Shown in pieces: positions 34,615 through 64,000 of a stretch of DNA of 64,000 nt. The DNA lies in the NCBI GenBank assembly GCA_020137815.1, contig CM035362.1, positions 1 to 64,000 on the forward strand, in the 5' to 3' direction. Position numbers and translations under genes: made by a program. Position 1 is the first letter of the stretch; every line of letters starts with the position of its first letter. Source of the DNA: Hormiphora californensis. Lineage: Eukaryota > Animalia > Ctenophora. Under the pieces are notes generated by a model, which did not search any database, had not been told where the DNA came from, and worked only from the letters and a program-made list of their open reading frames with translations.

Positions 34615-34780
<166 letters not shown>

Positions 34781-36080: not shown

Positions 36081-36116
36081 TAACAATAAATACCCCCTAT
36101 ACCCTCCTTATTTCAG

Positions 36117-37339: not shown

Positions 37340-37381
<42 letters not shown>

Positions 37382-38574: not shown

Positions 38575-39890
<1,316 letters not shown>

Positions 39891-40015
39891 AAAAATATAT
39901 AAAAATATATAAAAATATATAAAAATATATAAAATATCTAAAAATATGGTTAGTGTAGAGTCTGTGTCGTTCAAAGGGACCAAAGGAAGGTAACAAAGCG
40001 TTCCCTCTTAATATA

Positions 40016-41273
40016 TATTAAGCCAAAAACTAATTGAATAGTTGGCGGAAAAGGTGGCCATACACTTTTTCGCACAAAAACGAGTTTCATATCGGTATTG
40101 GGTATTCATTAAATTTTAAGGCTGAGTGTAATAGACGTAGGAATCGCAAATACAAATTTCAGGGACGCATCTAAGTAAGGGTACTGGGATACATAGATGG
40201 AAATCGTATCTTCCTCTATTCTCCTGATCTTGCTCTTTTCTCGCCTTATCTCTTCTATTCTCTCTCTCTCTCTCTCTCTCCCACACTCTATCACGCTCTA
40301 TTTCACTGTCTTATTCCATTGTATTCACCTCTTATATCCCTGATCCCGGCAGCGGGCAAAGGTGTAAGTGGGCCACCTTTCCCGCCAACTAATTCAATTA
40401 GTTTTTGGCTTAATTTAGGTACCTTTTTGGTTTTTAATCGCAGAAAGACAGTATTTCATAATGTAATATTGTCGAAATAATGCGATATATGAGAAACGAG
40501 ACGAATTTCTGTGAAAATCGTGTTTTAGACGTCATTATGACGTCATTTTACGTAATTAGTGACGTCGTAACGACGTAATTGCATCACAATATATTTTGAA
40601 TAAATACCCCAAAGGAGCTTATAAAGTTTCATTGACCACAGTGGTCAGGAAAGGGAGTTTTTACTAGAAAAACGTTCAATTTGCTGAATTTTTCGTCAAA
40701 TTTTTGACTTCCGACGCGATTCAAGGGCTCAAAATGATCAGCTACGAAAATTCGAAATAAAGTATCTGAAAGTTCAGACGATTTGCCGGTAACGATTTTT
40801 GGTCAAATTAGAAATCGGAACACGTCTTCAGGGTGCTAGAGGCGTTTGAAAAAAGTTAGTCGGTCTCGCGCAATGACGTCACTCATGACATCATTGCGCG
40901 CGTCATAGGCAAGATGGAGAGTCGCGACCCAGATGGGTACATGTACGAGACAATTATCTGTCGAATGCCGCTTGGTTTAAGGTCGTACGATGTCTGGTTC
41001 GTCTCAAACAGGGACCAAACGGAAGGTAACAAAGCGTCTATACATGTATGTATGTATTAAGCCAAAAACTAATTGAAATTAGTTGGCGGGAAAGGTGACC
41101 CACTTACACCTTTTGCTACTGCCGTGTATCACCACGAACTCTCATTCTATCCCTCGGTATCTCAATAGTCAATATCTTATTTTTCGAGGGTAACTTATTC
41201 CTGTTCGTTCTATCCCTCTCTCTCCTCCCTGTCTCCCTGTCCCTGTCGCTCTCTCTCGTTCTCTCTCTCTCGT

Positions 41274-41320
<47 letters not shown>

Positions 41321-43690: not shown

Positions 43691-44146
43691 ATATAAAAAT
43701 ATATAAAAATATATATAAAATAAACCCTTTTTTCACCCCTTTTACTTTCAAAAAAGGGGATTATTTCTATTGTTCACTTGAATATGTTTCATAGAGTTAA
43801 TTTAAGTGTTTGAGAGGGTGATAGCTGTTTTACATAATTGAGAATGTGTTCAAAAGTGAATTATGCACTGTCAAAAGTAGAACTGGTGAAGAGAGGTTCC
43901 GGCCTAATAATATCTACCAGTTTTGGTGCGATTTCAATCATTTTTTGTATGTTGATCCGTGCAGATGTACTAGAACTGGTGAAGAGAGGTTGGGATCGCG
44001 AAACTAAAAAAACAAATCATTTTTGACGTCATTTTGAAGTCATGACGTTATTGACGCGACGTCACGATGTTACAAACGTCACATTGATGACGGAAAATCA
44101 TCAGGATTATCTAGATGAAGATGCTGACCAAGTTTGAGATCAATTG

Positions 44147-45548
44147 CACAGTGGGTAACGATGCTATATTAGGAAAAAAATAAATTTTGCTGAAACTTCG
44201 TATATTTGTAGGAAATTGTCTGTTCTATCAGCTAAAAAAAGTCGCATCAAAAAATATTGAGATTCGACCGAGTTATGACTAAAAATATGATGCTCATATG
44301 GAAATTTTCACACTTAATTCAGTTTTCAAAGTTTAAATTGGCTGTTTTTATACCTTTTTTTCGGAATTATGTACATGTTTTCTCCAAAATTTCATTACAT
44401 GATATTATAAAACATAAATTTATCTTTCTTGTGGTTTTAAGTTCATGAAATTATGTTTTACTGTCTGCTGTCAGTGGAAAATTCCGTGTGCATGGTAAAA
44501 ATTGACCCATTTTTTAAGCGAAAAAAGTAAAAATAGTTTAGACGGCGCCCGACTGCGCCATATTTCTTGATGGGACATGTTAATATGGACCCTCCTGAAC
44601 ATCGTACAAGTGGAGATTGCGACGCGACTGGACGCAAAAGTTGCATAATAATGCGATTAAACTTAGAAATTTTGATAAAAACTGGAGAAGGAGAAATGTA
44701 ACTTCCGTTAGAAACGGGATAGAGACAATTACAACCACACCAAAATGTGTAGCGTCCTCGCATTAGTGGGGGTAGGTGCCGGAATTAAGTCGCCATCTCA
44801 TTTGATTAATTAGATAATTGGATAATTAGATATGCGCATAGCCATATTTAGCTATTATACGGTTTAACCGGTTCAGAGTAGGTTTAGCCCAATTTCCCTT
44901 GGCAAATCGATAGAAAATGCCCATATTTACATAGTAGTTATGAAAAAAGACATAGATTTTAAATATATGACCGATAATGAACCATTTGAACCACAATTAC
45001 CAAAATGCGGCTATGCGCATATCTAATTATTCAATTATCTAATTAACCAGATGAGATAGCGACTTAATTCCGGCACCTACCCCCACTAATGCGAGGACGC
45101 TACACACTTTAGTGCCCTTAATTTTATCTCTACTCCTTTCCTAAGTGTAGTTACACTTATAACCCTACAGTCAAAGTAAAGGTGCCACGCCCACCCGGAA
45201 ATGGACCCTTTTTACCACGAATAAATGATGCCATCGATTGTAATCGATAAAGATGACCTTTATGGACACATTTGTGGTGAAAATCTTTTGTCACACACTT
45301 TCCCCTGTTATTACTGACTTATCCGCTTCTTAACAATTTTCTACCCTTTTTTTAACGAAAATAGACTTCCCGTCGAGTGTCCTCAAGCCTCATCCGGGTG
45401 TAAAAAGTCCAAAATTTTGGTATCTAGGTATATTAACTTGCTTTTAAGTCCATTTTGAGGGCTATTTAAGACAAAGAAATGTCTGAATGATGCCTAGATA
45501 AAGTATAATTCCCTAATATAGCATCCCCCCCGTTTCTTACCCACTGTG
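44147..45548. mobile_element. Non-autonomous DNA transposon with CACAGTGGG termini
   Basis: CACAGTGGGTAA.GATGCTATATTAGG ... CCTAATATAGCATC...TTACCCACTGTG; internal inverted pair at ~44748-45105. Confidence 0.6.
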
Positions 45549-46750
45549 GAGCAGCCTGTCGCTTAGATACCGCCTAACGAACGGCCACTTCGACGACGTT
45601 CATCTCCAAATTATAATAGAGACTAGCGCACCCATTGGGTGTGCCTCAAGTATGGGCTTTTTGATTACCCACCCGGCTTCGCCGGGTGGTTCTTTTCGCC
45701 CCTTTCCACGTCAATAACACGGTTGCCATGGCAACTGAATTGATAAATATGGGGACTGGCACTTTGAAAGTCATTCGAAAATATTAACAAACTTCCACTG
45801 GAAGTTCCAAAAGTGTAAATGGCAGCTTTACAGCTTTGGGTACATGAAGTGTTTTATGAAGGAGCAGTCTGTCGCGTAGATACCGCCTAACGAACGACCA
45901 TCACGCGACATCTTCAAATTATAATATAGACTAGCGCACCCATTGGGTGCGCCTCAAGTAAGGGCTTTTTGACAACCCACCTGGCTTCGCCGGGCGGTTC
46001 TTTTCGCCCCTTTGAACGTCAATAAAACGGTTGCCATGGCAACTGAATTGGTAACTATGGGGACTGGCATGTTAAAATTCATTCGAAAATGTTATTAAAC
46101 TTCCACTGGGAGTTCCAAAAGTGTGAGCAACAGCTTTACAGCTTTGGGCCTATAAAGTATTTTATGAAGGAGCAGTCTGTCGCTTAGATACCGCTGAACG
46201 AACGACCACTTCGACGTTCATCTCCAAATTATAATATAGACTAGCGCACCCATTGGGTGCACCTCAAGTAAGGGCTTTTTGATAACCCACCCGGCTTCGC
46301 CGGGCGGTTCTTTTCGCCTCTTTCAACGTCAATAACACGGTTGCCATGGCAACTGAATTGGTAACTATGGGGACTGGCATGTTAAAAGTCATTCAAAATA
46401 TTAATAAACTTCCACTGGAAGTTCCAAAACTGTGAGTAACAGCTTTACAGCTTTGGGCACATAAACTGTTTTATGAAGGAGCAGCCTGTCGCGTAGATAC
46501 CGCTGAACGAACGGCCATCACGACGTCGTTCATCTCCAAATTATAACAACTGAATTGGTAACTATAGGGGCTGGTATGTTAAAAGTCATTCGAAAGTATT
46601 AAGAAACTTCCACCGGAAGTTCCAAAGTGTGAATGACAGCTTATACAGCTTTGGTCATATGAAGTGTTTTATGAAGGAGCAGACTGTCGCTTAGATACCG
46701 CTGAACGAACGACTTCGACCACGACGTTCATCTCCAAATTATAATAGAGA
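45549..46750 (-). mobile_element. Head-to-tail tandem array of a ~310-bp non-autonomous Helitron
   Basis: On the minus strand, units start TCT(A/C)TATTATAATTTG and end with the hairpins CCCGGCGAAGCCGGG and CGCACCCAATGGGTGCG followed by CTAG; CTAG|TC junctions near 45622, 45930 and 46240; outer 5' end is A|TC at 46750. Confidence 0.75.
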
Positions 46751-48297
46751 TGGTTTTGGTCTGACTTGTTAACTCAGTTGTTAAAAAGTTAATTATATAT
46801 GAAACGTCAAACGTGAAGGGGTTAGTTCAATCACCTGATATCCTTCAATGTAGATGTACAGTCACTTTAAGAGCATGGGACCTTCACTAAAGTGTTCCTT
46901 GGATCAAAAAACTAAGTTGGTGAAGGTCCCATGCTTTTAACTTGTCTTTTAAGCTTGCACGTGCATGGGCGTTCCTAGTCATGAATGAATTTCAAACATA
47001 ACATAGAGATGTCATCTTTTCACCAAACTTTTAATCGGACACCAAGCAAATGTAACAAACAATTGGTTAAGACATTATTCCTCTCACTTTAACGGTGCAC
47101 ACTAAAAAGATTCCAACTATTCCAGACCTCATAAGTGACTTTTTGACCCGTCGACCCCCCCCCCCTTTGATAGACGCTGATAAAAATAAATACAAATAAG
47201 TGACAGAAAACCATCACTTCCCAGCTATTACTTTGTAATGTAAACTAAAGTGGCTGGAATTGAGATTTAAAAAGATTAAAAATAACACTTTAACAAATTA
47301 TACTTAGTCCAGCTGTTTGGCTATTAGTGGTAAAGGATTAAGATTTGAGGGTTCATTAAAACATGTTTCATAAACCGTGTCATAGCATTTTAATCTACAT
47401 GAGAAATGAGAATATCCCACGAAGCTTTTTATAATACCTGGAAGAAATATAGATATAATAATACCCGGACACTGGACAGAGTTTAGGACAGTGGTAAGGA
47501 GCCGCTTTCAAGCTCAAAGGTCACCATCTCGTCTTGGACTGAAAGTAAGAGTGGACAGAATCAGAATTGGACAAGTTTTTTTGGAGGTTGTAGAGAATAG
47601 TTCTATGAGCATTGAGCAATGCATTTTGCCGCTCAAAACCGACCCATCCATCACTGAGATATTTTTGTTACTCTCGGGGAATTCCTGCTGGATCAATATT
47701 TATCAAACAGGATAGAAACAATCCTTGTGTTTTACTAACAAATTCTTTAAATTTTTAACATGCTGAATTGCATTGCTCTGCTTCTGTGCATGGACATGTC
47801 AACCTCACTACTTATATTCAGAACGTGTTAGTAAAACACGACGATTGATTCTATCCTGTTTTTTGCATACTGATTAAACAGGAATTCCCCGAGAGTAACA
47901 AAAATATCTCAGTAATGGATGGGTCGATTTTGAGCGGCAAAAAGGCAAAATGCTCATAGAACTAATCTCTACAACCTCCCAAAAACTTGTCCAATTCTGA
48001 TTCTGTCCACTCTCACTTGAAGTTTGAGAATGGTCACATTAATTACTGAATTCTGAGGGAATTTTTTCGGGGGTTAGATGGGTCACCTTGCCAGCGCAGT
48101 GATACATCAGCGGTTACCATAATATTATTCACCTAACGACTTTATGTGGACCCAAGTCTGAAAAATATTTAGGAAATAATTATGAAAAGTACTCTACTCG
48201 ATAGTACTGTCTGTAATTGCCTTCCTCAACCCTCTCTCACATATTGTCTAGGTGTGTTAGGTCATATCAAGTAGGTAACAGAAACCCCTCTTTTTAG

Positions 48298-48419
48298 CCA
48301 GCTGCTGTGTAGTGAAAGTATAGCATCCTACATGGATGAGCACTTCGTAGTGTGGCCCTTCGACCTTACCAATAGGAGGCTGCAGAAAGAGTGTCTAGAT
48401 GAATGTATAAACATTTTCG
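48298..48419 (+). CDS. FAF1: FAF1 exon (UAS domain)
   Basis: tttttag| (S)QLLCSESIASYMDEHFVVWPFDLTNRRLQKECLDECINIF(G) |gtaagt; compare SQMLCAESIVSYLSQNFITWAWDLT. Confidence 0.92.
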
Positions 48420-48543
48420 GTAAGTTACCGGATTTGACTTGTTAACTCAGTTGTTAAAAAGTTAATTATATATGAAACGTGAAGGGGTTAGTTCAATCAC
48501 TTGATATCCTTCAATGTAGATGTACATTGTACAGTCACTTTAA

Positions 48544-49234
48544 GGGTACACCTGGCGTTTTTCATCATCGAGTGCCCAACCAAATGACTTCACCAGGGTT
48601 TAGGCCATACAAAATGGACCTCAAATATGCAATTTTAGCCCTAAAGTTGAATTCATATTTTTGCTACAGCCTATTTTCAAAGTGGCGTTTTTTCAATTGT
48701 TGGTGGAATTATTTGTGCTGTTGCACCTCCCAATAATAGTATGAACAATACAAGGAATTTTTAACCTCAGGACCACTTTTTTTGAGATAGAAACATTAAA
48801 TTCTTGGAATTTGAAGAGAATATAATAAAGGTAAATAAGCCCAAAGAAGGATTTTTGAAATGGAGCTAATTTATGGCCATGAGAACGGTTTACTTTTTTG
48901 CTTCTTTGACACGCTGGCTGAGAATGTTCCCATGCTTCATTAGAGATGAAAATCTGGAAATAGTTGCTCAAAACGATTATCTATGTGGCCCAAAAATTTT
49001 GGAACTTTCCCGCCAAAGATGTGGTGTACAGAGCTTGTTTTGTGAAACCCATCTTTTTGAAAAAGAGGGAGATTCCCTGTATCTCAAAAACGCCACTTTG
49101 AAAATAGGCTGTAGCAAAAATATGAATTCGACTTTAGGGCTAAAATTGCATATTTGAGGTCCATTTTGTATGGCCTAAACCCTGGTGAAGTCATTTGGTT
49201 GGGCACTCGATGATGAAAAACGCCAGGTGTACCC
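48544..49234. mobile_element. TTAA-targeting MITE (Kolobok-like)
   Basis: TTAA|GGGTACACCTGGCG...CGCCAGGTGTACCC|TTAA with ~145-bp TIRs. Confidence 0.85.
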
Positions 49235-49586
49235 TTAAAAGGGTACGGTAAATGGAGAGTTGAATTACAGGTGTGTCAATATTGAAATTTGAATAAATCT
49301 AACTAAACTTTAGTTAGATTTATTACTAAAGTCCAATTTACAGGCCGCCGCTTATCAATTTGTAGCGTATGGTGTACAGGTATTTTTGGTTCCTGATGAG
49401 AAACAATGCATGATTCCGCCTGTGACATTGGAAGATAAACATTTTTCTTTCTAACGCAACCAGGATCAAGTCTTCATCTTATCAGGAACCGGAGATATAT
49501 GACCAATTAACGAATTGAGTGTGCGGCGGCCTGGACTATATAATACAGAAGCTTGTATCGGCTCTAGTAATGATAATGTAACACAG

Positions 49587-49694
49587 GTGTAGAAGCTAGG
49601 CAAGCTATGGAGAGGAGAGTACCTGACAAACTGCCTATGTTGGTGGTTATTACCAAGGTGAAGGGTTCGCCCCAGGTCTTTAGCATGTTCGGCA
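49587..49694 (+). CDS. FAF1: FAF1 exon (UAS domain)
   Basis: acacag| (G)VEARQAMERRVPDKLPMLVVITKVKGSPQVFSMFG |gtaagt; compare DQFPLFLII; phases 1 to 1. Confidence 0.85.
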
Positions 49695-49779
49695 GTAAGT
49701 GTAGCTAACTTCAAACTTACTTTAATAGTTACCCTACCAGAGGTTAGTCTAACGTTTACACCCTCAAACGAACGTTTAA

Positions 49780-50439
49780 AGTAAGAGTGGCGTGCCGTGT
49801 TTTTTCACAAAACTTAGTGGATGAACGGGGAGTACCACCAGGACCATTGGTACGGTATCGAAAATCTCCAATTCTGTCTCGTTCATTAGTTATGACGTAA
49901 TATGTTCATTATTTAAACTTTTATAAAATTGCTCTTCAGAAAAATCTGTGCATTGTGGATTAAAATGGATGCTTGCATCGTGTTCAGCGTCAAAAAATAG
50001 CCGGGGTACCAAATTTTGGTGTCTCTACCTTGTCTGTGGCGCGAGATATCGACAATTATCAAAAACGACCAAAATGGGAGAAAGAGAGTTCGTTATTTTT
50101 GGGTGCTCGTTGTTTGTGCGCGCCACCCAAAAGTAACAAACTCTCTTTCTCTCACTTTGGTCGTTTTTGATATTTTTCAATATCTCGCGTCACAGAGACA
50201 CCAAAATTTGGTACCCCGGCTATTTTTGACGCTGAACACGATGCAAGCATCCATTTCAATCCACAATGCACAGATTTTTCTGTAGAGCAATTTTATAAAA
50301 GTTGAAATAATGAACATATTACGTCATAACTAATGAACGAGAAAGAATTGGAAATTTTCGATACCGTACCAATGGTCCTGGTGGTACTCCCCGTTCATCC
50401 ACTAAGTTTTGTGAGAAAACACGGTGCGCCACTCTTACT
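49780..50439. mobile_element. TTAA-targeting fully palindromic MITE (~660 bp)
   Basis: TTAA|AGTAAGAGTGGCG...CGCCACTCTTACT|TTAA; arms of ~310 bp. Confidence 0.88.
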
Positions 50440-50554
50440 TTAATGATCGATTAATAGACGCTACGTAATGACCAATGTATAGGAAATCTTAATGACTCTC
50501 CGGAGATCTCCTTGCGTAGGTCCACACTAAAATCCTCATTTCAAATCTTTCCAG

Positions 50555-50643
50555 GTGAGATAAACCCAGATCTGTTGATGGCATCCCTGGTAGACGCCAC
50601 GGAGAACTACGCTCAGACTAAATCTCTGGAACGTGCTACTGAG
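50555..50643 (+). CDS. FAF1: FAF1 exon (end of UAS domain)
   Basis: ctttccag| (S)EINPDLLMASLVDATENYAQTKSLERATE |gttcgt; compare TTVDELMMRLMAAME. Confidence 0.85.
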
Positions 50644-50759
50644 GTTCGTAAAGTCGGATTTTTTGAATTTGTAACCTCTTTTGACGTGCGGCGTTGTATT
50701 TGTGCGTGACAGCCCCGACTAGTTCTCTCTACTCTGTGGACGCAATTTTCGATTTGCCG

Positions 50760-51314
50760 CATTCTGCGTCTAGACGATGTAGCAACGCCGTCTAGACGGT
50801 GTCTAGATGGTATACCGTCTAGACGGGTTTTGATAAATCCGCTAAAAACGGTACGGAATTGCTTGAAACGGAGTAAAAAGGTGCTTGATCAAGCTTGAGA
50901 CGGGTTATTTACGGTATCAGACGGTGTTGCAACGGTATCAGACATCGTCTGGACGGTCTCTAGACGGTACCGTCTTGGCGTCTGGAAGGTGTCTAGACGG
51001 TGTCGTATCAAAGTTGAGACGGCACGTCTGAAAATTGTACCAGAAGTTGAGACTGTAACTCAGACGGGGTTCTGAAAGTACACAAAAGTACACAGTCTAA
51101 AGGAAAATCGATGAATGTATCGTCTAAGCAACGTCTCAACTGAAACCGGTAAACATACCGTCTAAACTTGTTGAGTAAGGGGGAAGAGTCTTCCCCCTTA
51201 CTCAACAAGTCTAAACAAAGTCTAAGCAAAATCTCGCGATTCAATTTCAAATACCGTCTAAACAACTTCTAGATAATGTCTGAAAGAATGGTTTCTAGAC
51301 TCGACCGGGCAGGG
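50760..51314. repeat. Dispersed CCGTCTAGAC(GG) motif array, probably a DNA-transposon subterminal region
   Basis: Many degenerate CGTCTAGACG copies in both orientations. Confidence 0.55.
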
Positions 51315-51709
51315 TTTTTGCCTTTTGGAGATCATTCTGGATTACCCATGCCAAAAAATCCAAATCCACGCCAAAAAAACATCTTAGGAAACGAGTAGAG
51401 AAAAAACTAAGGGCACTAAAGTTATCAGCGCCCTCGCATTAGTGGGGGTAGACGCCCATCAAAAATCTCTACCTCATTTGGTTAATTAGTTAATTGGATA
51501 ATTAGATCTACACATAGTCCTTTTTGGCCATATGGCTATAGCCACTTAGGAATGGTTTAGAGACATTTCACTGGTGCCATATTGTAGGCAATGGCCAAGT
51601 TATGGGGGGTCGACGTCGAACTTTTAAGCTCTATCTCGAACCGTTTAGCCGTTATTTGGCTTTAAAGGTGCTCAAAATGAGCAAAAAACGGTAAAAAGCC
51701 CGATTTTGA

Positions 51710-51931
<222 letters not shown>

Positions 51932-52037
51932 TTTATGTATGTAATGTGATCCCCAAGTTTGCAAGGAGTTGTGATTCGTAACAGAAATATATACCTACAA
52001 ATCACATCGCCAGTCGCCACATTCGTTTCTGTTTCAG

Positions 52038-52103
52038 ATGGAGCAGGAGCAGCGGTCTATGTTACGGGAGGAGCAGGAACGTGAATACCGGGATTCATTG
52101 CAG
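52038..52103 (+). CDS. FAF1: FAF1 exon (coiled coil)
   Basis: gtttcag| MEQEQRSMLREEQEREYRDSLQ |gtcaga; compare RENVKREQDEAYRLSLE. Confidence 0.88.
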
Positions 52104-52541
52104 GTCAGAGTCTGAGTTACTATGGTAATGACAGTGTTATCGTTACAGTTCATTCCTGTTTATAGTTTACGGTCATTTTTACGCTGGTTAACCTTTGAAT
52201 TACAAAGAATTACAAGTTCCTTTTGCACTCTACTCTACAGTCGGAACCCGATTAATCGGGCCGGGATGCTCGGGGGAAAGGGCTATGCCCGGTATATCGG
52301 GTTGGTATTATCAGAGAGAGAGATGCCAGAGAGAGAAAGCAGAGAGATAGCAGAGAGAGAGAGAGAGAGAGAGATAGCAGAGCTAGAGAGATAGCAGATA
52401 GAGATAGCAGAGAGAGAAAGCAGAGAGAGAAAGTAGAGAGAGATAACAGAGAGAAAGAGAAAGCAGAGAGAGATAGCAGAGAGAGATAGCAGAGAGAGAG
52501 ATACTAGAGAGAAAGCAGAGAGAGAAAGCAGAGAGAGAGAT

Positions 52542-53154
52542 GGGGGGGGGTCCAGCCCTAAAAAAAGCTAAAGGTACCCTGATTTTGGTCGATAGCGTTT
52601 TTTATTTTAGCTTTTTTTAGCTTTTTTTAGCTTTTTTTAGCCCTACTTTTTATGTTTTTTCAGCATTCATCTTGACACTTTTCCATTAAATTTTCATCCT
52701 TCCGGACGTCTATTGACTGCATTTGTTCATTTCCTGCACATTTTTTTACCATAATCTACCGTTTATGTCCATACATAGCAATTTATGTATCCACCCCTAC
52801 TGCTATTTTCTGGAGACATTTTTTCGATAAAAATATTATTCAAATTTGATAAAAATAGTTTTAAAAAAGTTCAAAAAACGTTATAAAACGTTATAATAAA
52901 AGTTTAAAAAATTTGGCGTCAGCGGGATTCGAACCTATATGAATCCACTAAAAACTCAATTTTAGCTTTTTTTAGCTTTTTTTAGCTTTTTTTAGCCTCA
53001 AAAAAGCTAAATAAAGCTAAATAAAGCTAAAAAAGCTAAAAAAAGCTAAAAAAGGCTAAAAAAAGCTAAAAAAAGCTAAAAAAAAGCTAAAAAAAGCTAA
53101 AGGTACCCTGATTTTGGCCGTTAGCTTAGCTTTTTTTAGGGCTGGACCCCCCCC
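52542..53154. mobile_element. Poly-G/poly-C-ended MITE inserted in a (GAGATAGCA)-type minisatellite
   Basis: G-run+TCCAGCCCTAAAAAAAGCTA is inverted at the far end; AAAAAAGCTA 10-mer arrays. Confidence 0.75.
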
Positions 53155-54220
53155 AGAGATACCAGAGAGATACTAGAGAGAAAGCAGAGAGATAGCAGAG
53201 CTATAGAGAGATAGCAGAGAGAGATAGCAGAGAGAGATAGCAGAGGGAGATAGCAGGGATAGATAGCAGAGAGAGATAGTAGAGCTAGAGAGGTAGCAGA
53301 GAGAGATAGCAGAGAAAGATAGCAGAGAGAGTCGAGAGATAGCAGAGAGAGAAAGCAGAGATAGAGAGGTGGGACTAAGGGGAACTTGAGAGATATGAAA
53401 AGAACGAGGAAGAGGGATATTTAGTGTACGTTGCTTGAGCAATTGATCGATTGCTAGCAATCCCACACAAAAACCAAAGAAAACGAATTTTCTGTGTTAC
53501 GAACGTTTCATGGATAAAACCAATCTTCAGACGATAGCTTGCAATCGATCAATTGTAATCACCCGTGCTAAAAAGACCATCCGGGTGAATGCCCTTCGGA
53601 TTTTTTGAAGTTGTCACCTCCCCCCCCTGGGTTGGAAACTTGTTTTGGCTCTCACGCCTTTGTTTTTTGACCAACAAGACAAAATATGACATTAGTCTAT
53701 TTAATTCTTGTCAAAATACGGCTTAGTGGGGGTAGGTGCTGGAATTAAGTCTCATCTGGTTAATTAGATAATTGGATAATTAGGTCTGCGCATAACCGTT
53801 TTTTGGCTGTATGGCTATAGCCACTTAGGAATGGTTTAGAGACTTTTCACTGGTGCCATTTTATTCATAAATGAATTTTAATCTAATTTTAATTTAATTA
53901 ATAATATAAGAGTTGTGGGAAACCTCCCCCCAACAGGTAGAGCTTAGAACTTTTTTTGGTGTCTTAGGAGGTCCCTGGCTAACATTTAGTGAAGGAATTA
54001 GCTTGCCCCCCAAAAATATGAAGTCATGGCAAGAATTCAATGGACTACATCTAAAATCCGGTCGCACATAGCAATTGTCATATTAGGTTGGGTTTAGCTT
54101 TTATGCCGAGTTTGAAAAAAACACATTGGTAAAGGAATTAGCTTGTCACAAATTGCTTCCCAGTCACACAGCTAACATCCTATACTACTACTCTCACATT
54201 CATCCCCTTCTTACTATCAG

Positions 54221-54341
54221 CGAGACAGAGAGCGAGACGAAGCAAAAAAGAGAGAGGAAAAGGAAGAGCAGCTCCGTAGTCAAACAGAGGTTGCTAAGCT
54301 ATCTTCTTTTGCTGATCTGGTACCTGATGAACCTGCTTCAG
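54221..54341 (+). CDS. FAF1: FAF1 exon (coiled coil to the pre-UBX PxEP linker)
   Basis: ctatcag| RDRERDEAKKREEKEEQLRSQTEVAKLSSFADLVPDEPAS |gtatga; UBX exons are expected beyond the window. Confidence 0.85.
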
Positions 54342-55994: not shown

Positions 55995-56040
55995 AATAAC
56001 TCGACGTTTCGCCGTTCGACGGCATCATCAGGATAATCTA
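55995..56040 (-). ncRNA. Minimal hammerhead ribozyme of the Penelope-like element
   Basis: Minus strand reads C-CTGATGA-T-GCCGT-CGA-ACGGC-GAAAC-GTC-GAG: catalytic boxes, 5-bp stem II and GUC site; AATAAA about 15 nt downstream. Confidence 0.75.
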
Positions 56041-56143
56041 TAAATGAAATGGGTCACATATTAGTAAAAATAGACGAAATACACGAAATATGATCTATAC
56101 AAAATATACACACGCAAAAACTAGGAACTGAACATTGTACTGA

Positions 56144-57092
56144 CTAGATAATAAACTGTTCAATCGTATCACCTTCTTCTCTCTTGTTAATAGTAGGCAT
56201 TAATAGTTTAATATGGATTGCCTCCATCACCTTCCTTCTCACTGGTTGGTCAAGCCCAGTTTCCAGTATATTGAATTCTAGATCAGGAGGTTCTCCGTCA
56301 TGAATAGTTGAATAGTGTGTCGCGAGAGCTTCATTAGGATAGGTATTGGGCGATATTGCTGCCAATCTATGTTCTTTGAATCTCTCACGACACGGTCGTG
56401 CTGTCTCTCCTACATAAATCTGTTTACATAATTTACACTCAATTTTATATACAACGCCTTTAACTGTACAATCTAGGGTAGGGTGGTTTATGAGGGGGCA
56501 TATGAGGCAGTTAGTGAGGTGACAATGGGGCCTATCATATGGTCGTGATTTACAGAACAAGTTCCGTAACTTGGTTCCTGGGGTGAATACAGTGCGAATA
56601 GGGAGGTTGTGAGAGGTGATAAATGATGTGACGAATTGGGTGAATGATTCACTGATGTATGGAAGTTTGAGTACTGTTGAGTGATCGCGTGATGTGTTTA
56701 TCTTCATAAGGCGTTGTTCAGACAGTTCTCTAGGATTCGGGTATCCGTTGTTCATCAACAGCTTGTCAACAATGTTTCTCGAGTGATCCTGGTGGATAGC
56801 ATTCGATGAACATGTATCTGCTGTTCGGTAGAAACTCCTGATAGTCTGGAGTTTCACAGTTTCCGGGTGATGACTGTTAGCATGGAGTGTGATAGGTTTC
56901 TTCTGAGGTTTCCGGAAGTATCTATGTTCGATGATACTCTCATCAGAAACACGTATCTCAGCATCCAAAAACGGAACCCAATCTCCTTTCTCTGGATAAT
57001 CCACTTCCCACTGTAGAAGTTGGTCGGGGTCCTCTGCTGCTATACTCGCCACCATTGCTTCAGCTTCTACTTTGGATCTGGCAAACGCTCCG
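56144..57092 (-). mobile_element. Penelope-like element: RT C-terminus plus GIY-YIG endonuclease, interrupted by the LTR element
   Basis: VPFLD, YFRKP, HANSHHP, LPYI, GVVYKIECKLC.QIYVGET.R...RFKEH, R.VMEAIHI...P.IN; the frame stays open up to the LTR junction at 57092. Confidence 0.92.
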
Positions 57093-57475
57093 TGTAATAT
57101 TAAAGGTTGAGTGGATGAGGGTCTGTTTTAAGTACTATCAGAACTGCTTAAATAAGGGGTGGTTAAGAGATAGGTAAAACGTACAGAATATAGAAAATAT
57201 AAGAAGTGTCCGGTAGAGAGGGATCGTAACTGATGATTTGACATGTGTCCTGATAGCCCAGGGAGCACAGAGGTGAGAAATATGAGGAAAGAGAAAGGGC
57301 CCCCTAGAGGGGTGTTGACATGCCCTGTAAACGGGGTGACCAGGTTGCGGCTGCAGGGATGCATAAATAGATGCATAATTGATTATAGCCAAATTATGGA
57401 GATAATTGATTGGAAGGCCGACAGTGTCAACTAGGCAGGCTATTGCGATTGAGGATTGATATGATGATTACAACA
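57093..57475 (-). repeat. Putative 3' LTR of the Gypsy/env element
   Basis: Minus strand starts TGTTGTAAT and ends ATATTACA exactly where the Penelope ORF resumes; the second LTR is not in the window. Confidence 0.72.
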
Positions 57476-57492
57476 GATCCCTCTACTTTTAA
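57476..57492 (-). other. Polypurine tract
   Basis: AAAAGTAGAGGGATC immediately before the LTR on the minus strand. Confidence 0.6.
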
Positions 57493-57755
57493 TTTTTTAC
57501 AAATTCTTAAAAATATATATTCTTTTTTTTTTTTCTTTTTTTTTTTTTGTATCTTCTCATGTTTATAAAACAAACTCTGCTTTCACACGTGTTAGATACA
57601 AATCACCTCTTCTTACAACATGCAAATATGTATCATATATAATTGTCTCTACTACTATTTATTGTCCGTACTAAAATCATGATAATTGATAATGATATTG
57701 ATAATATGAAGTCATGATAATTGATAATGATATTGATAATATAGAAGTCTCTCCC

Positions 57756-59450
57756 TTATCCTTCTAAGTTGATATGCAGAAGCGGGTACGAGCTTCTCCA
57801 TACAAAACTGAGTAAGGTTTGGTATTCCTTGGCCGAAGTTGGCGGTGCCATCCGTTGCCTCCGTGCCACCCAATCGCACGCCTCCCTTAGATACTTTGAT
57901 CTTCGGATGACTATACCCCTGATTGCGTCTTTGATTTCTGCGAAATTGACATGTTGATTTTGATTATTATGGAGTTGAGTAACTTCTCCGATGAGAGGAC
58001 TTAAAGACTCGTGTCTTATGAAGTCTCTCTCTATGATGAAAGCTGATTGTCTGACTCGTTTTAGCATTTTGATGACGTCATCTTGGCAATTGATTGGTTG
58101 TGACAATTCCTTCTGGAATACCTTGATTACTTTCTTCCCTAAGCGGTCTGCCCAACTTTGAGGAATAAATTGAGGATTGATTCTGTGATATGAGTAAGTT
58201 TCACCCCATTCATAAAACGGCTTGAATTCATTTTTGATAATTGAGGACTCTGTGACGTCACTGATTTCTGATGGCACTCTGATTTTATAATTAGGTCCAT
58301 CTGATCGTGGTGACGGTTTGGGCATTGATTTTAGGTCACTTCGCAAATTTTTGACGAATTCCACTGGATCAGTATATCCCATCTTGTCCATGGGTCTGTT
58401 GACGTAAGACTTTAGAACTGAAGAAGTGCTTTGATTCTCTTCCCTGATAGTTGAGTCCCTGTAGGATCGCTGTCGTTTTGAGGACCCGGATGATGATGTT
58501 CTGGTTGTGTCACTTGAAGTTGATTCAGTAGTTGAGGAAGGTGTTTGTCTTCTCTTCCCTGATGTCTCACGAGGCGACCGCGGGGGCGGCGGAGGTGGAG
58601 GAGGTGATTCTCGGTGATGACGGGGTGATGGGGGAGGGGGTGGAGGAGCTTGATTTTGATTCTGAACTATTGTAGCCCACGACTTTGATGATTGATTTTG
58701 TGGTCGATTGAAGGTTGATTTTTCCAGAATTTGCAGTTGATTTTTGATGATAGAGACTTCTCTCTCTTTATCTAAGAGTTTTGTACGTAATTCGGCAATT
58801 CTATTTTGTTTTTCGGTACTCATTTCGGTCATTTCAGGGTGTGGCAATTCTGGTATATAGGGTAAAGGCACCCCTTTTGTTACTTGATTGTGCATTGCCA
58901 TTAAGTGATGTGTAGTAATGTTTGAGTATTCCTTGCAATACACCTGATTCCTGATACTTGATTGTGGTTGTAGAACCTTGAGGAAAGACGATATGAGTAG
59001 TTCCCTATGGTACATCCATAAGATCGATTTGATTGTAGGTGATGGAGTTTCTAGAATTGCATATATCAAATTTGAGAAGGGTGTCAGGTCTAGCCTTCCC
59101 ACGATAAGTTCTGACTCAACCTCCTTTAGACAATGAAAGATTTCGCTGTCCGATAGCTTTGCCCAGCCTTTTGCCATGAAATTGAGTATGGTTTTGAGGA
59201 TGGGTGCCAAGCAATGATTATTGATAATTTCCGATAATGATTCTGGATATGAAGCTGATGTTGATGCTACTGGTTCCACGTTAGATTCTGCTGGTCCCAA
59301 GTTAGTTCCTGATGGTCCCAAGTTAGATCCTGAGGCTGTTATTGAGGTTGGTTTTGCTGCTGTATCTCCGTTGTGGGAGGCTGTATCCATAACTTCGTCC
59401 ATTGACGAAGCCGAAGGGGAACGTAGGAGGATTTCCTCCTCTTTTGACAT
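57756..59450 (-). CDS. Uncharacterised 564-aa accessory ORF between env and the 3' LTR
   Basis: Uninterrupted frame from MSKEEEILL; helical region, coiled coil, poly-Pro and Ser/Thr/basic linker, globular-looking C-terminus; no family recognised. Confidence 0.75.
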   Translation of the reverse strand: MSKEEEILLRSPSASSMDEVMDTASHNGDTAAKPTSITASGSNLGPSGTNLGPAESNVEPVASTSASYPESLSEIINNHCLAPILKTILNFMAKGWAKLSDSEIFHCLKEVESELIVGRLDLTPFSNLIYAILETPSPTIKSILWMYHRELLISSFLKVLQPQSSIRNQVYCKEYSNITTHHLMAMHNQVTKGVPLPYIPELPHPEMTEMSTEKQNRIAELRTKLLDKEREVSIIKNQLQILEKSTFNRPQNQSSKSWATIVQNQNQAPPPPPPSPRHHRESPPPPPPPPRSPRETSGKRRQTPSSTTESTSSDTTRTSSSGSSKRQRSYRDSTIREENQSTSSVLKSYVNRPMDKMGYTDPVEFVKNLRSDLKSMPKPSPRSDGPNYKIRVPSEISDVTESSIIKNEFKPFYEWGETYSYHRINPQFIPQSWADRLGKKVIKVFQKELSQPINCQDDVIKMLKRVRQSAFIIERDFIRHESLSPLIGEVTQLHNNQNQHVNFAEIKDAIRGIVIRRSKYLREACDWVARRQRMAPPTSAKEYQTLLSFVWRSSYPLLHINLEG

Positions 59451-59496
59451 TTGAACACTGATAAAATATGTTTTTAATGAGTATTTCTTAAATTTT

Positions 59497-61272
59497 TTAT
59501 GTGATATTAGAACGTGTATCTGATTCATTTGATAAATTAGGATATAAATTATTTTGATCATAAAGTGAGTTTACTCTGAGATCTATAGCTTCATCATATA
59601 CATGATTAGGCAAACAACAGGTACAGCGTCTTCTGATTGCATGGGTAACAACGGCAACAGTATGAGGATTGTATTTATAAGTTAAGAATAGAGCAACGCC
59701 TAAACTGAGTAATATAGCAGGCGCAGTAACTCCTAAGAAAATGTAAAGAGATGTGTGATGATTGTTTTTGGTTTTATTGGATTCTGATTTTTGATGATCG
59801 ATTAGAGGAAGTAATAATTCTTCTGCTGTTTTATTGAGTTCATTACATAAAGATGTTAGTTGGGCTGTTAATTGAGAACTTGTTATATTGTGATTGTAGG
59901 GGAATGAGAATTGGTTTATAATGATTGGTTCTGGTTCTAGGTATGGAGATTCGATGTGAGTTCTGCACACTTGAGCTGCTTTGATGGTGTCCCAGCTGAC
60001 AAATGATGATTTTGATGGAGGAGTTGAAATGGGATTTATGATTCCCTTTTCGCTAATTGAGTATGCCTGATTTCCAAAATTGTCTCTAAAAAGTATGCCT
60101 TGAGGAAGCAGATTATAAGTACACAGAAAAGGACAAGCTTGTTCTCTAGATTGACACTTGATTTCTTCTGATTGTAAACATGATGTTGTATTTAGTATAC
60201 TGTACGTAGGACAAACAAAGAGTGAATTGTGTTGTTTACATGAGTTGATGTCGATGTCCCAAGAGGATGATTTCTTGAGAATAATGTGTTTTGGTAAGTC
60301 ATAGAATAAGCACTGATCTTGAGAATTAGGAATGAAACTGCCAATTTAATGAATTTTATTGATGTCGTACAGTTCATCTGATTTATAGATGACAGGAATG
60401 AGCAATACAAAATGTACTGTTGATAGATTTTGGGCAACATTGATGAGAGATATTTCTGCTACTGAGTAGAGAAGATGAGGATTAGCATAAAAAATGCTAT
60501 TTGATAATTCAGTGTGATTCGAAATAATTAATTCCAGCATTTCTGGACTGATAATAGAAGGATTAAGTGAAATTTTGCTTTTTCCTTCTAATGCTGGACC
60601 AATGATCTTATCTATAATTTGAGTATGCCTCCAGAAGATGTTCTCCATCTCCTGTATAAGGACTTCAGTATGAATTATGCAGTTTGATGAATCGATGTAT
60701 CTGATTAGATTATCATAACTAGATTTGATTAAGGCCACTATATTTTGCTGAATGATTTTTATGGTCATGTTTTGATTGTTGATTTTTTGTTTTAGTTGAG
60801 CTATGATTTGTTTATTTGACTTTAAGTGTTGTTTGAGTCTGATAATTTGGTATTCTGTGATTCCATTGAATACGAGATTGAGAACACTAGGTAAATACTT
60901 TATTATGCTTCTTTGATCTCTCCCTGACTTTTCTTCAAGTTTGATGATATATGGGGAAAGGATATTCAAACGAGTGTTGATGTATTGATCAGCCCGTTGT
61001 ATCCAATGATTTTCTGATGTTTTTAGACGACTGATTTCCTTACTGAATTTGGAGATATATGTTGAGTAACATGGTTTGTGAGATAGAGCGTGATATTTGA
61101 TTCTGTCAATGTCCCCTTTGATATCAGGAAGTTTGATGATAATTGAGATTAATGTTTGAGTGTCTGATATAGCTACTTTACCCAATTTTTCTGCTGATAC
61201 TCCTAATTGAGGATAAACAAAACCTGATGATTCTACCATGTAGGGTAGAAAAACTAATAAAAACCAAAACAT
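59497..61272 (-). CDS. env: Envelope (class I, F-type fusion) glycoprotein with a single in-frame stop
   Basis: Signal MFWFLLVFLPYMVES; RDQR|SIIKYLPSVLNLVFNG cleavage site and fusion peptide; heptad repeat; Cys-rich region; TM LYIFLGVTAPAILLSLGVALFL; Cys-rich tail. ORFs 60346-61440 and 59497-59970 share one frame, joined across TAA 60346-60348. Confidence 0.85.
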
Positions 61273-61853
61273 GTTAGTCTTTGACGAATACGTAGACATA
61301 AAATGAGGAAGTGGGGCATGAGAATATTTCGTGATTTTTAATGATTCTGTTAAGTTTAACGTGTCAAGATAATGATTTTTCGACATGATAAGGTTCCAAG
61401 AATTAGTCACGTAATATTTACTGGAAACTTTTAATTCCATGAATTTGAGAAAATTCTCTGAAATATACGATTAAACTGTGTTGACCAGGAGGCCACGCCC
61501 CGCCGTCCTGCCGCCAATGAGGATATTAGGAACCTGAAACATGCATAGCACCTAGAATCACCCCAAAAATCGTGGGTGATTAGGATTTGTGTATAGATAA
61601 TACAAATACAAAGAATAAAATATCTAAATACCAAATGAAGAAAAGTAAAATAATTACTTTAAATGATGCTAGTCAGGATACTGATTAAATGCATTCAAAA
61701 AGGTTAAAGTGGTACAACCACGTGCGATGTATTCTACAAAATAGTTGAGTACATCGTTAGATAACCTGTGAGTAAATTGACTGAGCATAATAGTATTTCT
61801 AAGAATACGTGTAAAATGGGATTGAATCCCGTGTTCGAGCAAGTTAGAGCTGA

Positions 61854-64000
61854 TTATTTTGATTTTTTGATAGACTCTTTTTTGCTTCTTAGAGGATACT
61901 TGTGACCACTAGTACTACCCTCAGATGATTGAGGATTAGTCTCCTCGTTCTTAGAACTACCTGAACTGACCTTTTTGAGACCTTTAGATTTCTTTGATTT
62001 ATTTGATGATGTGATTGAACTCTGAAATAATTGAGTCTTTTTAGGATTAGGTCGTAGTTCTCTAGGCACTTCAGGTCTTGGTCTTTTGGTTACTACTGAT
62101 ATTTGAGGTGTTGTGGGTACTGAACTTTCTGAGAAAGATCTCTGTCGGACTCCTTGATTACCGGACTCCTCCACCGTGGGAGTAGCTACAGGAGTGTGAA
62201 ACTCTTGAGACGGAGATTTCTCAATATTATTACTTGAGACTGTAGTACTTGATATTTCCGGAGTTTTTAACTCTGGTACCTGAGGACTGTTTTCTGATGA
62301 CTCTGTTCCTAATTCCAAAATAGGAGTTTCAGGACGACCGCTATGATGTTGAGAATCAGCATTAGGAGGTTCATCGTCCATATGCAAAGATTGAGGAGTA
62401 GCAGAAGGTCTGCTAGTGGGTATATTTTCTTGGGATTGAGTGTTGTCATCATTAGCATTATTGATGGAGTCATGAGATTGAGAGTCCATATTGCTGTGTT
62501 GAGAATTGATTGAATCCAGTTGGTGATGAGGAGTATCACGTGAAGCATGAATATGAGTATTCTCAGAATTAGCTTCAGTGTTATCCATAACAGGTATACA
62601 ATTGCCATTTCTAGACCTAGAGCGATCAAGATTAGGATACCAGGACACGTCTGAATCATCCCCGGCATTTCCGGAGTTTGATTGGTTTCCTTTCACATGA
62701 TGTTTTGAGGAAGTGATTAGGTTGTCTGTGATACTCTGCGAATACTTATTATTTTTATTGGGGTAATGTTTGAGTTTTGATATACTGACTACCCTTTCAA
62801 TACCGTTAAAGTTAATTATGTAGTTATGATCATTGATTTTCTCGAGAATTACGTGAGGTCCTGTCCATTTATGAGAATATTTATGATTACGTATATTGAC
62901 AAGGAGCATACAATAATCACCTTTTTCGAAAAACGGACCACGCACATTTTTGTCATATTGATTAGCCATGTATCTCGATTTCGTTTCTGATTGTGAGCTG
63001 ACCTGACGAGCGATGTGTTTAGCATGAGAATATGAGTCATACACGTTTTGATAATCGGGAGAATTGTCTGGAACAAAGAAATCCCTGGGAGTTCTAGCTT
63101 CCTGACCAAAAACGAGGAAGTTAGGAGAGAATCCAGTGCGATTTGATTGAAGACAATTGAGTGTAAATATAATCCAATCGATATATAGATCATATTTATG
63201 AAAATTCTGATTATTGAGAATTGCTCTGAAGCAAGCATTGATGCGTTTGTGACAAGATTCTACTCTGCCTTGGGTTGATGATTTCCATGGAGTAGATCTG
63301 ACATTATGTATACCAAATGATTTACAAGTTTCTTTGAAGAGAGTTGATTCGAAACCTGATCCTTGATCGTGCGTAATTTTGGAAGGGATTCCAAACTTAC
63401 AAAACCAATGTTTAATGAGAACATTTATTGTGTTATTAGCGCTTGTTGACCTAACAGGTACACACACTAGATACGAGCTGTACATGTCTACAATTGTGAG
63501 GAGTGCTACATGACCTCTTGGAGTTGGTTTCTTAGTAGGTTCCAAGTGATCAATTTGAATACACTGATTAAAATGATGATAAATCTGAGGTTTTAGAGGA
63601 GCTTTGAGAAATTTTGAGGTTGGTTTAGTGCGCTGACAAGTGACACAAGCACTTACATACAGCTTAATTTCTTCTTTTATTTTGTAAAAGAAATAATGTT
63701 TTGAGATTTGCTGATAAGTTTTTTGCACACCCATATGACAACTTTGTATGGTATCATGATATAAATACAGAGCTCTTTTGATAAGAGTTTGAGGAAGAAT
63801 GGTAGCAAAATGATATTTATGAGGATCCGAATTTGAGAATATTTTCATTTGCAAGATTCCATCCTGCAATCTGAGAAATTCGAAATTTCGATAATAATAC
63901 CACAATTCTTTGTGACATTGATTGGGATTGAGTTTTGGTAATTCTGAAGAATCTATCCAATTGATAACTTCATTGATAATTGAGTCATTTTGATATTCTT
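61854..64000 (-). CDS. pol: Ty3/Gypsy Pol C-terminus: integrase with a long low-complexity tail
   Basis: HHCC (YHD...HMG...CVTC), D-D-E (IQIDH, THDQG, GRVES), GPY/F-type WTGPH; the frame is open to the window edge. Confidence 0.95.
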   Translation of the reverse strand, partial: EYQNDSIINEVINWIDSSELPKLNPNQCHKELWYYYRNFEFLRLQDGILQMKIFSNSDPHKYHFATILPQTLIKRALYLYHDTIQSCHMGVQKTYQQISKHYFFYKIKEEIKLYVSACVTCQRTKPTSKFLKAPLKPQIYHHFNQCIQIDHLEPTKKPTPRGHVALLTIVDMYSSYLVCVPVRSTSANNTINVLIKHWFCKFGIPSKITHDQGSGFESTLFKETCKSFGIHNVRSTPWKSSTQGRVESCHKRINACFRAILNNQNFHKYDLYIDWIIFTLNCLQSNRTGFSPNFLVFGQEARTPRDFFVPDNSPDYQNVYDSYSHAKHIARQVSSQSETKSRYMANQYDKNVRGPFFEKGDYCMLLVNIRNHKYSHKWTGPHVILEKINDHNYIINFNGIERVVSISKLKHYPNKNNKYSQSITDNLITSSKHHVKGNQSNSGNAGDDSDVSWYPNLDRSRSRNGNCIPVMDNTEANSENTHIHASRDTPHHQLDSINSQHSNMDSQSHDSINNANDDNTQSQENIPTSRPSATPQSLHMDDEPPNADSQHHSGRPETPILELGTESSENSPQVPELKTPEISSTTVSSNNIEKSPSQEFHTPVATPTVEESGNQGVRQRSFSESSVPTTPQISVVTKRPRPEVPRELRPNPKKTQLFQSSITSSNKSKKSKGLKKVSSGSSKNEETNPQSSEGSTSGHKYPLRSKKESIKKSK

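What the first reader, a model, noticed from the sequence alone, without database searches (positions are those of the whole stretch)
57093..64000. Retrovirus-like Gypsy element with pol, F-type env and an extra ORF, nested in a Penelope element inside a FAF1 intron
Seen in sequence: integrase, then an env-like ORF, then a 564-aa ORF, PPT and TG...CA LTR, all on one strand, with only one visible lesion in ~6 kb. Established: env-bearing Gypsy elements (errantiviruses) normally run gag-pol-env-LTR. Inference: this is a recently active, possibly infectious element with a more complex layout, in what may be an early-branching animal.
Basis: partly seen in the sequence, partly recalled or inferred. 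Interest (0 to 1): 0.85.

Follow-up and report, generated by a model that had tools for sequence, protein, structure and literature searches.

The report
Comb-jelly retroelement with a fourth gene
A retrovirus-like jumping gene of a comb jelly, of a kind already described in these animals, carries after its envelope-like gene a large extra reading frame that other copies share and that likely encodes an accessory protein of the sort known from 'complex' retroviruses.

Summary
On the minus strand lie a Gypsy-type integrase, an F-type env with one in-frame stop, a 564-aa ORF4, a PPT and a 383-nt TG…CA LTR. The element sits in the RT gene of a young Penelope copy. Records named Pleurobrachia bachei match env and ORF4 at 99%, so the host is a ctenophore. 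A 10.6-kb read contig joins the LTR to 3,860 further bases, giving an element of about 11.15 kb; 5′ junction, PBS and TSD were not seen. ORF4 belongs to the family: it is attached to env in runs of three other studies, shows no stop or frameshift, and has relatives with best-stretch identities of 49–61%. No database gave it a family, fold or RNA. Env-F Gypsy elements in ctenophores, P. bachei included, are already published (PMC13524379), so only the post-env ORF is new; six literature searches did not find it. The scan reported similar post-env genes in other animal genomes. The FAF1 intron is inferred, and infectivity is untested. Verdict: new variant of a known kind, interest 0.5.

The parts
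61854..63998 (-). 3' part of pol: integrase (H2C2 zinc finger, rve core, weak SH3-like hit) plus a ~290-aa low-complexity Ser/Pro/basic tail; open at the window end
   Evidence: 706 of 714 residues identical to the full pol record P0004, which has RT-RNase H-IN order and a weak protease hit
61441..61853 (-). pol-env spacer with an acceptor-like TCAG ending at 61458, 18 nt before the first env ATG
   Evidence: sequence; motif count, pattern chosen after seeing the site
59497..61440 (-). F-type env: hydrophobic signal-like stretch (from 61272), R-D-Q-R site (60921-60910) followed by a hydrophobic stretch, Cys-rich part, TM segment (about 59742-59686), tail; one in-frame stop at 60348-60346
   Evidence: ESM Atlas hits to Gypsy env, Baculo_F and Fusion_gly clusters at 0.92-0.96 for the database relative P0048
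59451..59496 (-). 46-nt AT-rich gap between env and ORF4 (17% GC) with an acceptor-like TCAG ending at 59458, 8 nt before the ATG
57756..59450 (-). ORF4, 564 aa: acidic disordered N-terminus with a 21-nt tandem unit, helical domain (~70-195), coiled coil (~205-247), poly-Pro/SPR and Ser/Thr/basic linker (~265-330), helical C-terminal domain (~430-560); no TM segment or signal peptide
   Evidence: the domain boundaries come from a low-confidence model
57478..57490 (-). polypurine tract, 2 nt before the LTR
   Evidence: sequence
57093..57475 (-). 3' LTR, 383 nt, TG...CA
   Evidence: boundary backed by loose ends at 57475 in run X8; joined to the 5' internal region in the contigs of X1 and X2
56010..57092 (-). 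3' part of a Penelope-like element (end of RT, GIY-YIG endonuclease), interrupted by the Gypsy element just after the YVDD motif
   Evidence: X2 contig, 0 substitutions over 56010-57092; empty-site continuation in X1 and X8
23879..54340 (+). host FAF1-like gene fragments: ubiquitin-like exon 23879-24070; candidate coiled-coil exons 52035-52106 and 54221-54340 (context only)
   Evidence: the last two exons gave no hit, and their likeness to FAF1 is recalled

Best explanation
This is the 3' half of a young envelope-carrying Ty3/Gypsy retrotransposon of a Pleurobrachia comb jelly, inserted into a Penelope element, and the 564-aa frame between env and the 3' LTR is likely a fourth, accessory gene that the family maintains. 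Shown: the layout, the nesting, the presence of ORF4 next to env in independent samples, and diverged protein relatives of ORF4. Inferred: the element copies itself through RNA with pol and integrase. Family copies with an uninterrupted env would make a class I fusion protein that could let particles pass between cells, as Drosophila gypsy does; in this copy the env frame is interrupted. ORF4 is likely read from its own spliced subgenomic RNA, because env and ORF4 each have an acceptor-like site just before their first ATG. The product is likely an intracellular two-domain helical protein with a coiled coil and a basic, Ser/Pro-rich linker. Most likely it acts on the host cell (gene regulation or counter-defence), like the post-env genes of complex retroviruses. 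That role is the weakest step, about 0.45 given a real gene.
For: (1) Family feature. All 8 of 8 runs laid cover all or part of ORF4. Single contigs bridge env and the first ~50 ORF4 codons in X7, X8, X9 and X10 (studies P2, P3, P4). X1 and X2, which may be the source of this DNA, hold one 10,604-nt contig with 0 differences that runs LTR - 3,860 nt - pol - env - ORF4. (2) Coding. Among 22 variant sites in ORF4 from X5, X6 and X8 there is no stop, and the indel table lists none in ORF4. 8 of 19 single-site codon changes are synonymous against 22.7% expected (p 0.047). (3) Conserved protein. Among 1.84 billion representatives, 5 hits: the near-identical P0002 and P0049-P0052 at 49, 52, 61 and 52% identity, covering both helical domains. 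P0052 is a second P. bachei gene model. (4) Env type. The ESM Atlas gave 0.96 to Gypsy env clusters, 0.95 to Baculo_F and 0.92 to Fusion_gly, with 192-217 shared features. The stop is absent in contigs of X7, X9 and X10 and in records P0048 and P0055. (5) Lineage. In a quick integrase tree of 53 rows, the window lies in a starred 40-row clade whose only organism-named members are ctenophore proteins. (6) Youth. The interrupted Penelope copy has 0 substitutions against the X2 Penelope contig over 1,085 nt.
Against: The genomic context of the ORF4 relatives was not seen; they lie on contigs of 621-1,967 nt. The synonymous excess drops to p 0.084 with a transition bias of 2, and all its sites come from one study. 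ORF4 has GC3 0.39 against 0.28-0.29 for integrase and env, which fits a separate origin. ORF4 has no Pfam family above cut-off, and the ESM Atlas recognition score for P0048 (1783) is below the 2300 level, where a high score is weak evidence. The env cleavage site is a minimal R-x-x-R, not R-x-K/R-R. The acceptor pattern was chosen after seeing the sites and matches 5 places in 6,525 nt; 15 of 127 CAGs are as T-rich. The P. bachei gene model P0002 skips about residues 170-261 of ORF4. One weak joint in X10 (21-letter side) skips env and ORF4.
Confidence: 0.78

Rival explanations
1. ORF4 is a real gene of the element but a structural part of the particle (a matrix- or tegument-like protein, or a budding adaptor), not a regulator. 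This rival shares the layout and family claims of the best explanation and differs only on the role.
For: Two predicted helical domains and a coiled coil; a poly-Pro stretch; two YP(x)nL-like motifs at residues 68 and 555, whose likeness to late domains is recalled.
Against: No PTAP, PPxY or zinc-knuckle motif, and short motifs occur by chance. The element has room for its own gag in the 3,860 nt upstream. The structure searches gave only generic helical-bundle matches.
Confidence: 0.25
2. ORF4 is passive cargo: a fragment captured from another element or host gene, carried along and kept open only because the family is young.
For: Higher GC3 than pol and env; 11 of 19 changes between copies are non-synonymous; relatives seen only as short fragments without context; env-less relatives exist in the same integrase clade, such as L004 with both LTRs and only 437 nt after pol.
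Against: No donor was found: no host gene family among 1.84 billion representatives, and no match to the window's other elements or to L001-L008. The ATG sits 46 nt after the env stop with an acceptor-like site before it. Length variation in the tandem unit keeps the frame. Contigs in X1 suggest a diverged sister family with similar PPT/LTR and Pro-rich pieces (matches of 31-93 nt, weak).
Confidence: 0.15
3. ORF4 is an independent insertion into this one copy, or an assembly artefact.
For: In the independent runs no single contig spans the whole of ORF4 together with env or the LTR; contigs break at the tandem unit (59288-59321) and at 57706-57713.
Against: Contigs of three other studies bridge env and the ORF4 start, and overlapping contigs chain ORF4 to the LTR in X5 and X8. 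A P. bachei gene model matches ORF4 at 99%.
Confidence: 0.03

Closest known systems
Env-F 'errantiviruses' of Ctenophora in Chary & Hayashi, eLife 2026 (PMC13524379): Pbac_errantivirus_1 and _2, Bfor_1, Bova_3, Hcal_2, Mlei_1
   Same: Ty3/Gypsy pol followed by an F-type env, in the same phylum and, for Pbac, the species whose gene models match this element at 99%. Their supplement lists 9 ctenophore elements, 6 with ENV_F. This family may be one of them; it does not fit Pbac_1, whose listed internal region is 7.9 kb.
   Different: The main text has no hit for 'ORF4', 'extra ORF', 'accessory' or 'downstream of env', and the authors state they did not look for other ORF arrangements. Identity with a listed element could not be tested: the sequences are on GitHub, not in the supplements searched. 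Bfor_1 and Mlei_1 have internal regions of 11.8 and 12.2 kb, longer than the 10.4 kb here, so they have room for such an ORF (inference).
Drosophila errantiviruses (gypsy, ZAM, Idefix; Metaviridae)
   Same: pol-env-PPT-LTR order and an F-type env; the ESM Atlas top hits are PF07253 Gypsy env clusters. Spliced env mRNA is recalled.
   Different: They end with env (recalled); this element has a 564-aa ORF before the LTR. Infectivity is shown only for Drosophila elements (PMC13524379, passage).
Complex retroviruses with genes between env and the 3' LTR (foamy virus tas/bet, HTLV pX, lentivirus nef; recalled) and foamy-like fish ERVs (PMC6431247, passage)
   Same: Position of an accessory ORF after env, on the sense strand, without a membrane anchor.
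   Different: The pol here is Gypsy-type and the env F-type. ORF4 shows no detected likeness to any of these proteins, so it is an analogy only.
Extra ORF3s of bdelloid rotifer LTR elements (PMC5408684, passages)
   Same: Invertebrate Gypsy-like elements that carry family-specific extra ORFs after pol; TelKA has an F-type env of about 600 aa.
   Different: In the passages seen, the extra ORF takes the ORF3 position and is often a recognisable enzyme (GDSL, DEDDy). Here it follows env and has no known domain.

Membership tests
Ty3/Gypsy LTR retrotransposon (Metaviridae) | pol order PR-RT-RNase H-IN | tested here: met
   On P0004, which is 706/714 identical to the window's integrase frame: RT E 1e-28, RNase H E 2e-23, then IN; the protease hit is weak, E 0.18. 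Only the IN part lies in the window.
Ty3/Gypsy LTR retrotransposon (Metaviridae) | LTR with TG...CA ends and a PPT before the 3' LTR | tested here: met
Ty3/Gypsy LTR retrotransposon (Metaviridae) | matching 5' LTR | tested here: inconclusive
   The X1 and X2 contigs pass from the LTR into the 5' internal region with 0 differences. This is a collapsed assembly path, so it does not show two LTRs at this locus or their divergence.
Ty3/Gypsy LTR retrotransposon (Metaviridae) | gag ORF, PBS and target-site duplication | not testable with these tools
   They lie beyond 64000; no genome is held, and the 3,860 letters in the contig are not printed.
Errantivirus in the operational sense of PMC13524379 | env homologous to glycoprotein F downstream of pol | tested here: met
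   ESM Atlas 0.92-0.96 to Gypsy env, Baculo_F and Fusion_gly clusters, 10 of 10 family hits agreeing; hydrophobicity and Cys pattern. No Pfam hit above cut-off.
Errantivirus in the operational sense of PMC13524379 | furin site, fusion peptide and four-domain F fold | tested here: inconclusive
   Only a minimal RDQR before a hydrophobic stretch; the single-sequence model had mean pLDDT 36.5.
Errantivirus in the operational sense of PMC13524379 | uninterrupted env ORF in this copy ('intact' element) | tested here: not met
   One in-frame stop at 60348-60346, also present in X2. Other family copies lack it, so this concerns the copy and not the family.
'Ancient errantivirus' group | RNase H plus 'mini' domain in the pol bridge; position in their RT tree | not tested
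My tree holds only my own search hits.
Retroviridae (complex retroviruses) | retroviral pol clade | not tested
   No retroviral rows in the tree; none of the named integrase hits is a retrovirus. Treated as an analogy only.

The most novel reading that the evidence does not exclude
Ctenophore env-F Gypsy elements form a lineage of 'complex' endogenous viruses: a conserved, previously undescribed two-domain accessory protein, made from its own spliced RNA behind env, is shared by several families and perhaps by the long Beroe and Mnemiopsis elements. Accessory-gene architecture would then have arisen outside Retroviridae in one of the earliest-branching animal lineages, and ORF4 would be a handle on how such elements counter ctenophore defences.
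Probability: 0.4. Interest if true: 0.72.

Novelty: new variant of a known kind. Interest (0 to 1): 0.5.

Why it matters
Env-carrying Gypsy elements are treated as three-gene elements, and the one broad survey annotated only gag, pol and env. A large conserved ORF after env suggests that some of them are organised like complex retroviruses. It also names a protein family with no detected relatives outside these marine sequences, which can be tested for expression and location. The nesting dates this insertion as very recent. The env-bearing ctenophore element itself is no longer a surprise.

Tried and rejected
No whole genome is held, so copies, TSD and PBS could not be read. No RNA holder was listed; this says nothing on expression. 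AlphaFold models were poor: env with X at the stop, pLDDT 36.5; ORF4 with an 8-row alignment, pLDDT 39.8. Foldseek against viral structures gave 0 hits at E 0.001 or better; the baculovirus P78/83 rows (E 0.07-0.6) were rejected as likely poly-Pro noise. VIA-align gave a best Z of 8.1 (apolipophorin-like bundle, rmsd 3.3, 124 aligned), within the range for generic helical bundles. The ESM Atlas gave no usable hit for ORF4. Pfam gave ORF4 only a sub-threshold coiled-coil hit. PDB sequence searches found nothing for env or the ORF4 profile. The word-index searches found only the near-identical P0002 for ORF4 and P0048 for env. Viral contigs gave no locus. The metagenome scan gave 8 loci from 142 stretches, none with env or ORF4 relatives by tblastn; most end soon after pol. 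Contig depth was lower over ORF4 than over env in X7, X9 and X10 but not in X8; the tool states that depth cannot rank parts, so it was not used as evidence of ORF4 loss. The tree is the quick one; the careful search did not finish. No UBX match in 10 of the 35 plus-strand frames of 25 aa or more between 54341 and 57100 that were scanned. Literature searches found no report of a post-env ORF in ctenophore elements. The library lacks most subscription papers and Repbase, and the figures and GitHub data of PMC13524379 were not seen.
Full report
What is there. The minus strand of 64000-57093 carries an integrase frame (63998-61854; Pfam Integrase_H2C2 E 2e-16, rve E 3e-12), a spacer, and an env-like frame from the first ATG at 61440 to 59497 with one in-frame stop at 60348-60346. 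After a 46-nt gap come ORF4 (59450-57756, 564 aa), a PPT (57490-57478) and a 383-nt LTR, TGTTG...TTACA (57475-57093). An open frame of 564 codons has a chance of about 1e-14 at this composition.

Host and lineage. Database proteins match the window at about 99%: P0002 (ORF4), P0048 (env) and P0004 (pol; 706 of 714 integrase-frame residues). The sources name P0002 and P0048 as Pleurobrachia bachei proteins, so the host is that ctenophore or a very close relative. P0004 shows RT, RNase H and integrase in Gypsy order. A quick maximum-likelihood tree of 53 integrase cores (the window, 45 proteins and 7 loci, taken from my own hits aligned over 200 residues or more) puts the window in a starred 40-row clade. 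The only organism-named members of that clade are P. bachei and Mnemiopsis leidyi proteins. The careful tree did not finish, and no reference Gypsy or retrovirus rows were available. The clade also holds an env-less element with both LTRs (L004).

The rest of the element. No genome is held. Runs X1 and X2, which may be the source of this DNA, each hold a 10,604-nt contig with 0 differences. It runs through the LTR, then 3,860 letters not in the window, then on from 64000 toward 57713 (seen in full for X2). With two 383-nt LTRs this gives about 11,151 nt, 10,385 of them internal. The contig is a collapsed path: it shows that this LTR is followed by a 5' internal region, but not the 5' junction, the PBS, the TSD or the LTR divergence.

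Nesting and age. Contigs in X1 and X8 run past 57092 in Penelope sequence with no LTR (table 7). Read by eye, these letters encode YVDD in frame with the window's remnant, so the Gypsy element inserted just after the Penelope RT motif. The interrupted Penelope copy has 0 substitutions and 2 gaps against the X2 Penelope contig over 1,085 nt, so both insertions are likely recent. The FAF1 setting rests on one exon that hits a FAF1 chain (E 5.5e-6) and on two later candidate exons with no hit. The intron is inferred, because the closing exon would lie beyond the window.

Env. Pfam and PDB sequence searches gave nothing above cut-off, and the model was unusable. The ESM Atlas placed the database relative P0048 with Gypsy env (0.96), baculovirus F (0.95) and paramyxovirus-type fusion protein clusters (0.92), with 192-217 shared features; its recognition score of 1783 is below the level where such scores are strong. 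The anatomy fits a class I fusion protein: signal-like stretch, R-D-Q-R before a hydrophobic stretch, Cys-rich part, TM segment and tail. The stop is present in X2, which argues against an assembly error but is not independent. It is absent in X7, X9 and X10 and in P0048 and P0055. This copy is damaged; the family is not.

ORF4 is a family feature. All 8 of 8 runs laid cover it wholly or partly. Single contigs join env to its first ~50 codons in X7, X8, X9 and X10, from three studies other than the possible source; contigs break at a 21-nt tandem unit in codons ~43-54. The 22 variant sites listed for X5, X6 and X8 include no stop, and no indel is listed in the frame. Of 19 single-site codon changes 8 are synonymous (expected share 0.227, p 0.047; p 0.084 with transition bias; one codon with three changes left out). 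This is weak on its own. The HMMER search of 1.84 billion representatives returned 5 proteins: P0002 and four diverged ones at 49-61% identity over the best stretch, covering the N-terminal helical domain (P0049, P0050, P0052) and the C-terminal one (P0051). They lie on short contigs or are gene models, so their context is unknown. In X1, contigs of a more diverged sequence match the PPT/LTR edge and the Pro-rich part of ORF4, and one joins the Pro-rich piece to the LTR end (pieces of 31-93 nt). This hints at a sister family with the same layout. Against a long shared history: GC3 is 0.39 in ORF4 and 0.28-0.29 in integrase and env, and the gene model P0002 skips about 90 residues.

How it likely works. 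Replication through pol and integrase follows from established knowledge of Ty3/Gypsy elements. Cell-to-cell spread through env is an analogy to Drosophila; PMC13524379 states that the mechanism remains elusive outside Drosophila (passage). Env and ORF4 each have a T-rich TCAG 18 and 8 nt before their first ATG, like the two candidate host acceptors. The pattern was chosen after the fact and matches 5 places in 6,525 nt, so spliced subgenomic RNAs are a hypothesis; earlier scan notes prompted this check. ORF4 has no membrane segment (best 19-residue hydropathy 1.32). It has a predicted coiled coil (the only part with pLDDT above 70), three SPR motifs and basic clusters KRR and KRQR. I read it as an intracellular accessory protein, most likely acting on host regulation or defence (about 0.45 given a real gene). 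A structural role in the particle is the main rival, and passive cargo is less likely. No family or fold was found.

What is known. From PMC13524379 I saw the abstract, passages, the first parts of sections 5 and 6, sections 7 and 14 in full, and the Ctenophora rows of supplementary files 1 and 5, plus search hits in three other files. It lists 9 ctenophore env-bearing Gypsy elements, 4 from P. bachei, 2 of those with ENV_F. This family may be among them; that could not be tested. The text does not mention an ORF after env and says that other ORF arrangements were not sought. PMC6431247 (passages) notes that LTR elements can capture ORFs downstream of env, and PMC5408684 (passages) describes extra ORF3s in rotifers, so extra ORFs as such are known. 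Six searches found no description of this ORF; other papers were seen only as listings. Earlier notes of this scan report post-env accessory genes in env-bearing Gypsy elements of other animal genomes; they are unchecked, and none matches ORF4 by sequence.

Verdict. This is a new variant of a known kind: an env-F Gypsy element of a ctenophore with a conserved, uncharacterised fourth ORF. Interest 0.5; 0.72 if the ORF proves to be an expressed accessory gene shared across ctenophore families (probability 0.4).

Noticed in passing
L004:1-7379: A complete gag-pol element with 308-nt terminal repeats (97% alike) and no env, in the same large integrase clade; env is therefore patchy in this lineage.
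   Followed up: partly
L005:6155-6487: A Pro-rich, basic, repetitive frame directly after pol, open at the contig end; similar in make-up to the ORF4 linker but no tblastn match.
   Followed up: partly
window 57115-57145, 57250-57321, 57392-57484, 58582-58620: Diverged contigs in run X1 match these short pieces, and one joins the Pro-rich ORF4 piece to the LTR end: a possible sister family with the same layout in the same sample.
   Followed up: no
window 59288-59321: A 21-nt tandem unit (TNLGPSG-like) near the ORF4 start; P0002 has a longer array in frame, and contigs of six runs break here.
   Followed up: partly
window 61854-62740: The integrase carries a ~290-aa Ser/Pro/basic low-complexity tail; several relatives have similar unalignable tails ending in an 'LRPNPKK'-like motif.
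   Followed up: no
window 10973-20012: Two tandem plus-strand LINE-like elements with Cys/His-rich ORF1s and endonuclease-RT frames, the second one decayed (assignment by eye).
   Followed up: no
window 7651-10523: A minus-strand non-LTR RT frame with a C-terminal restriction-like endonuclease look (CRE-like by recall), broken by frameshifts.
   Followed up: no
window 55144-55819: A very high-depth palindromic element (arms of 161 and 71 nt, 90-96% complementary), MITE-like, next to the Penelope 3' end.
   Followed up: no
PMC13524379 supplementary file 1, Ctenophora rows: Bfor_1, Mlei_1 and Bmic_2 have internal regions of 11.8, 12.2 and 11.3 kb, longer than this four-ORF element, so they may hide unannotated ORFs.
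   Followed up: no
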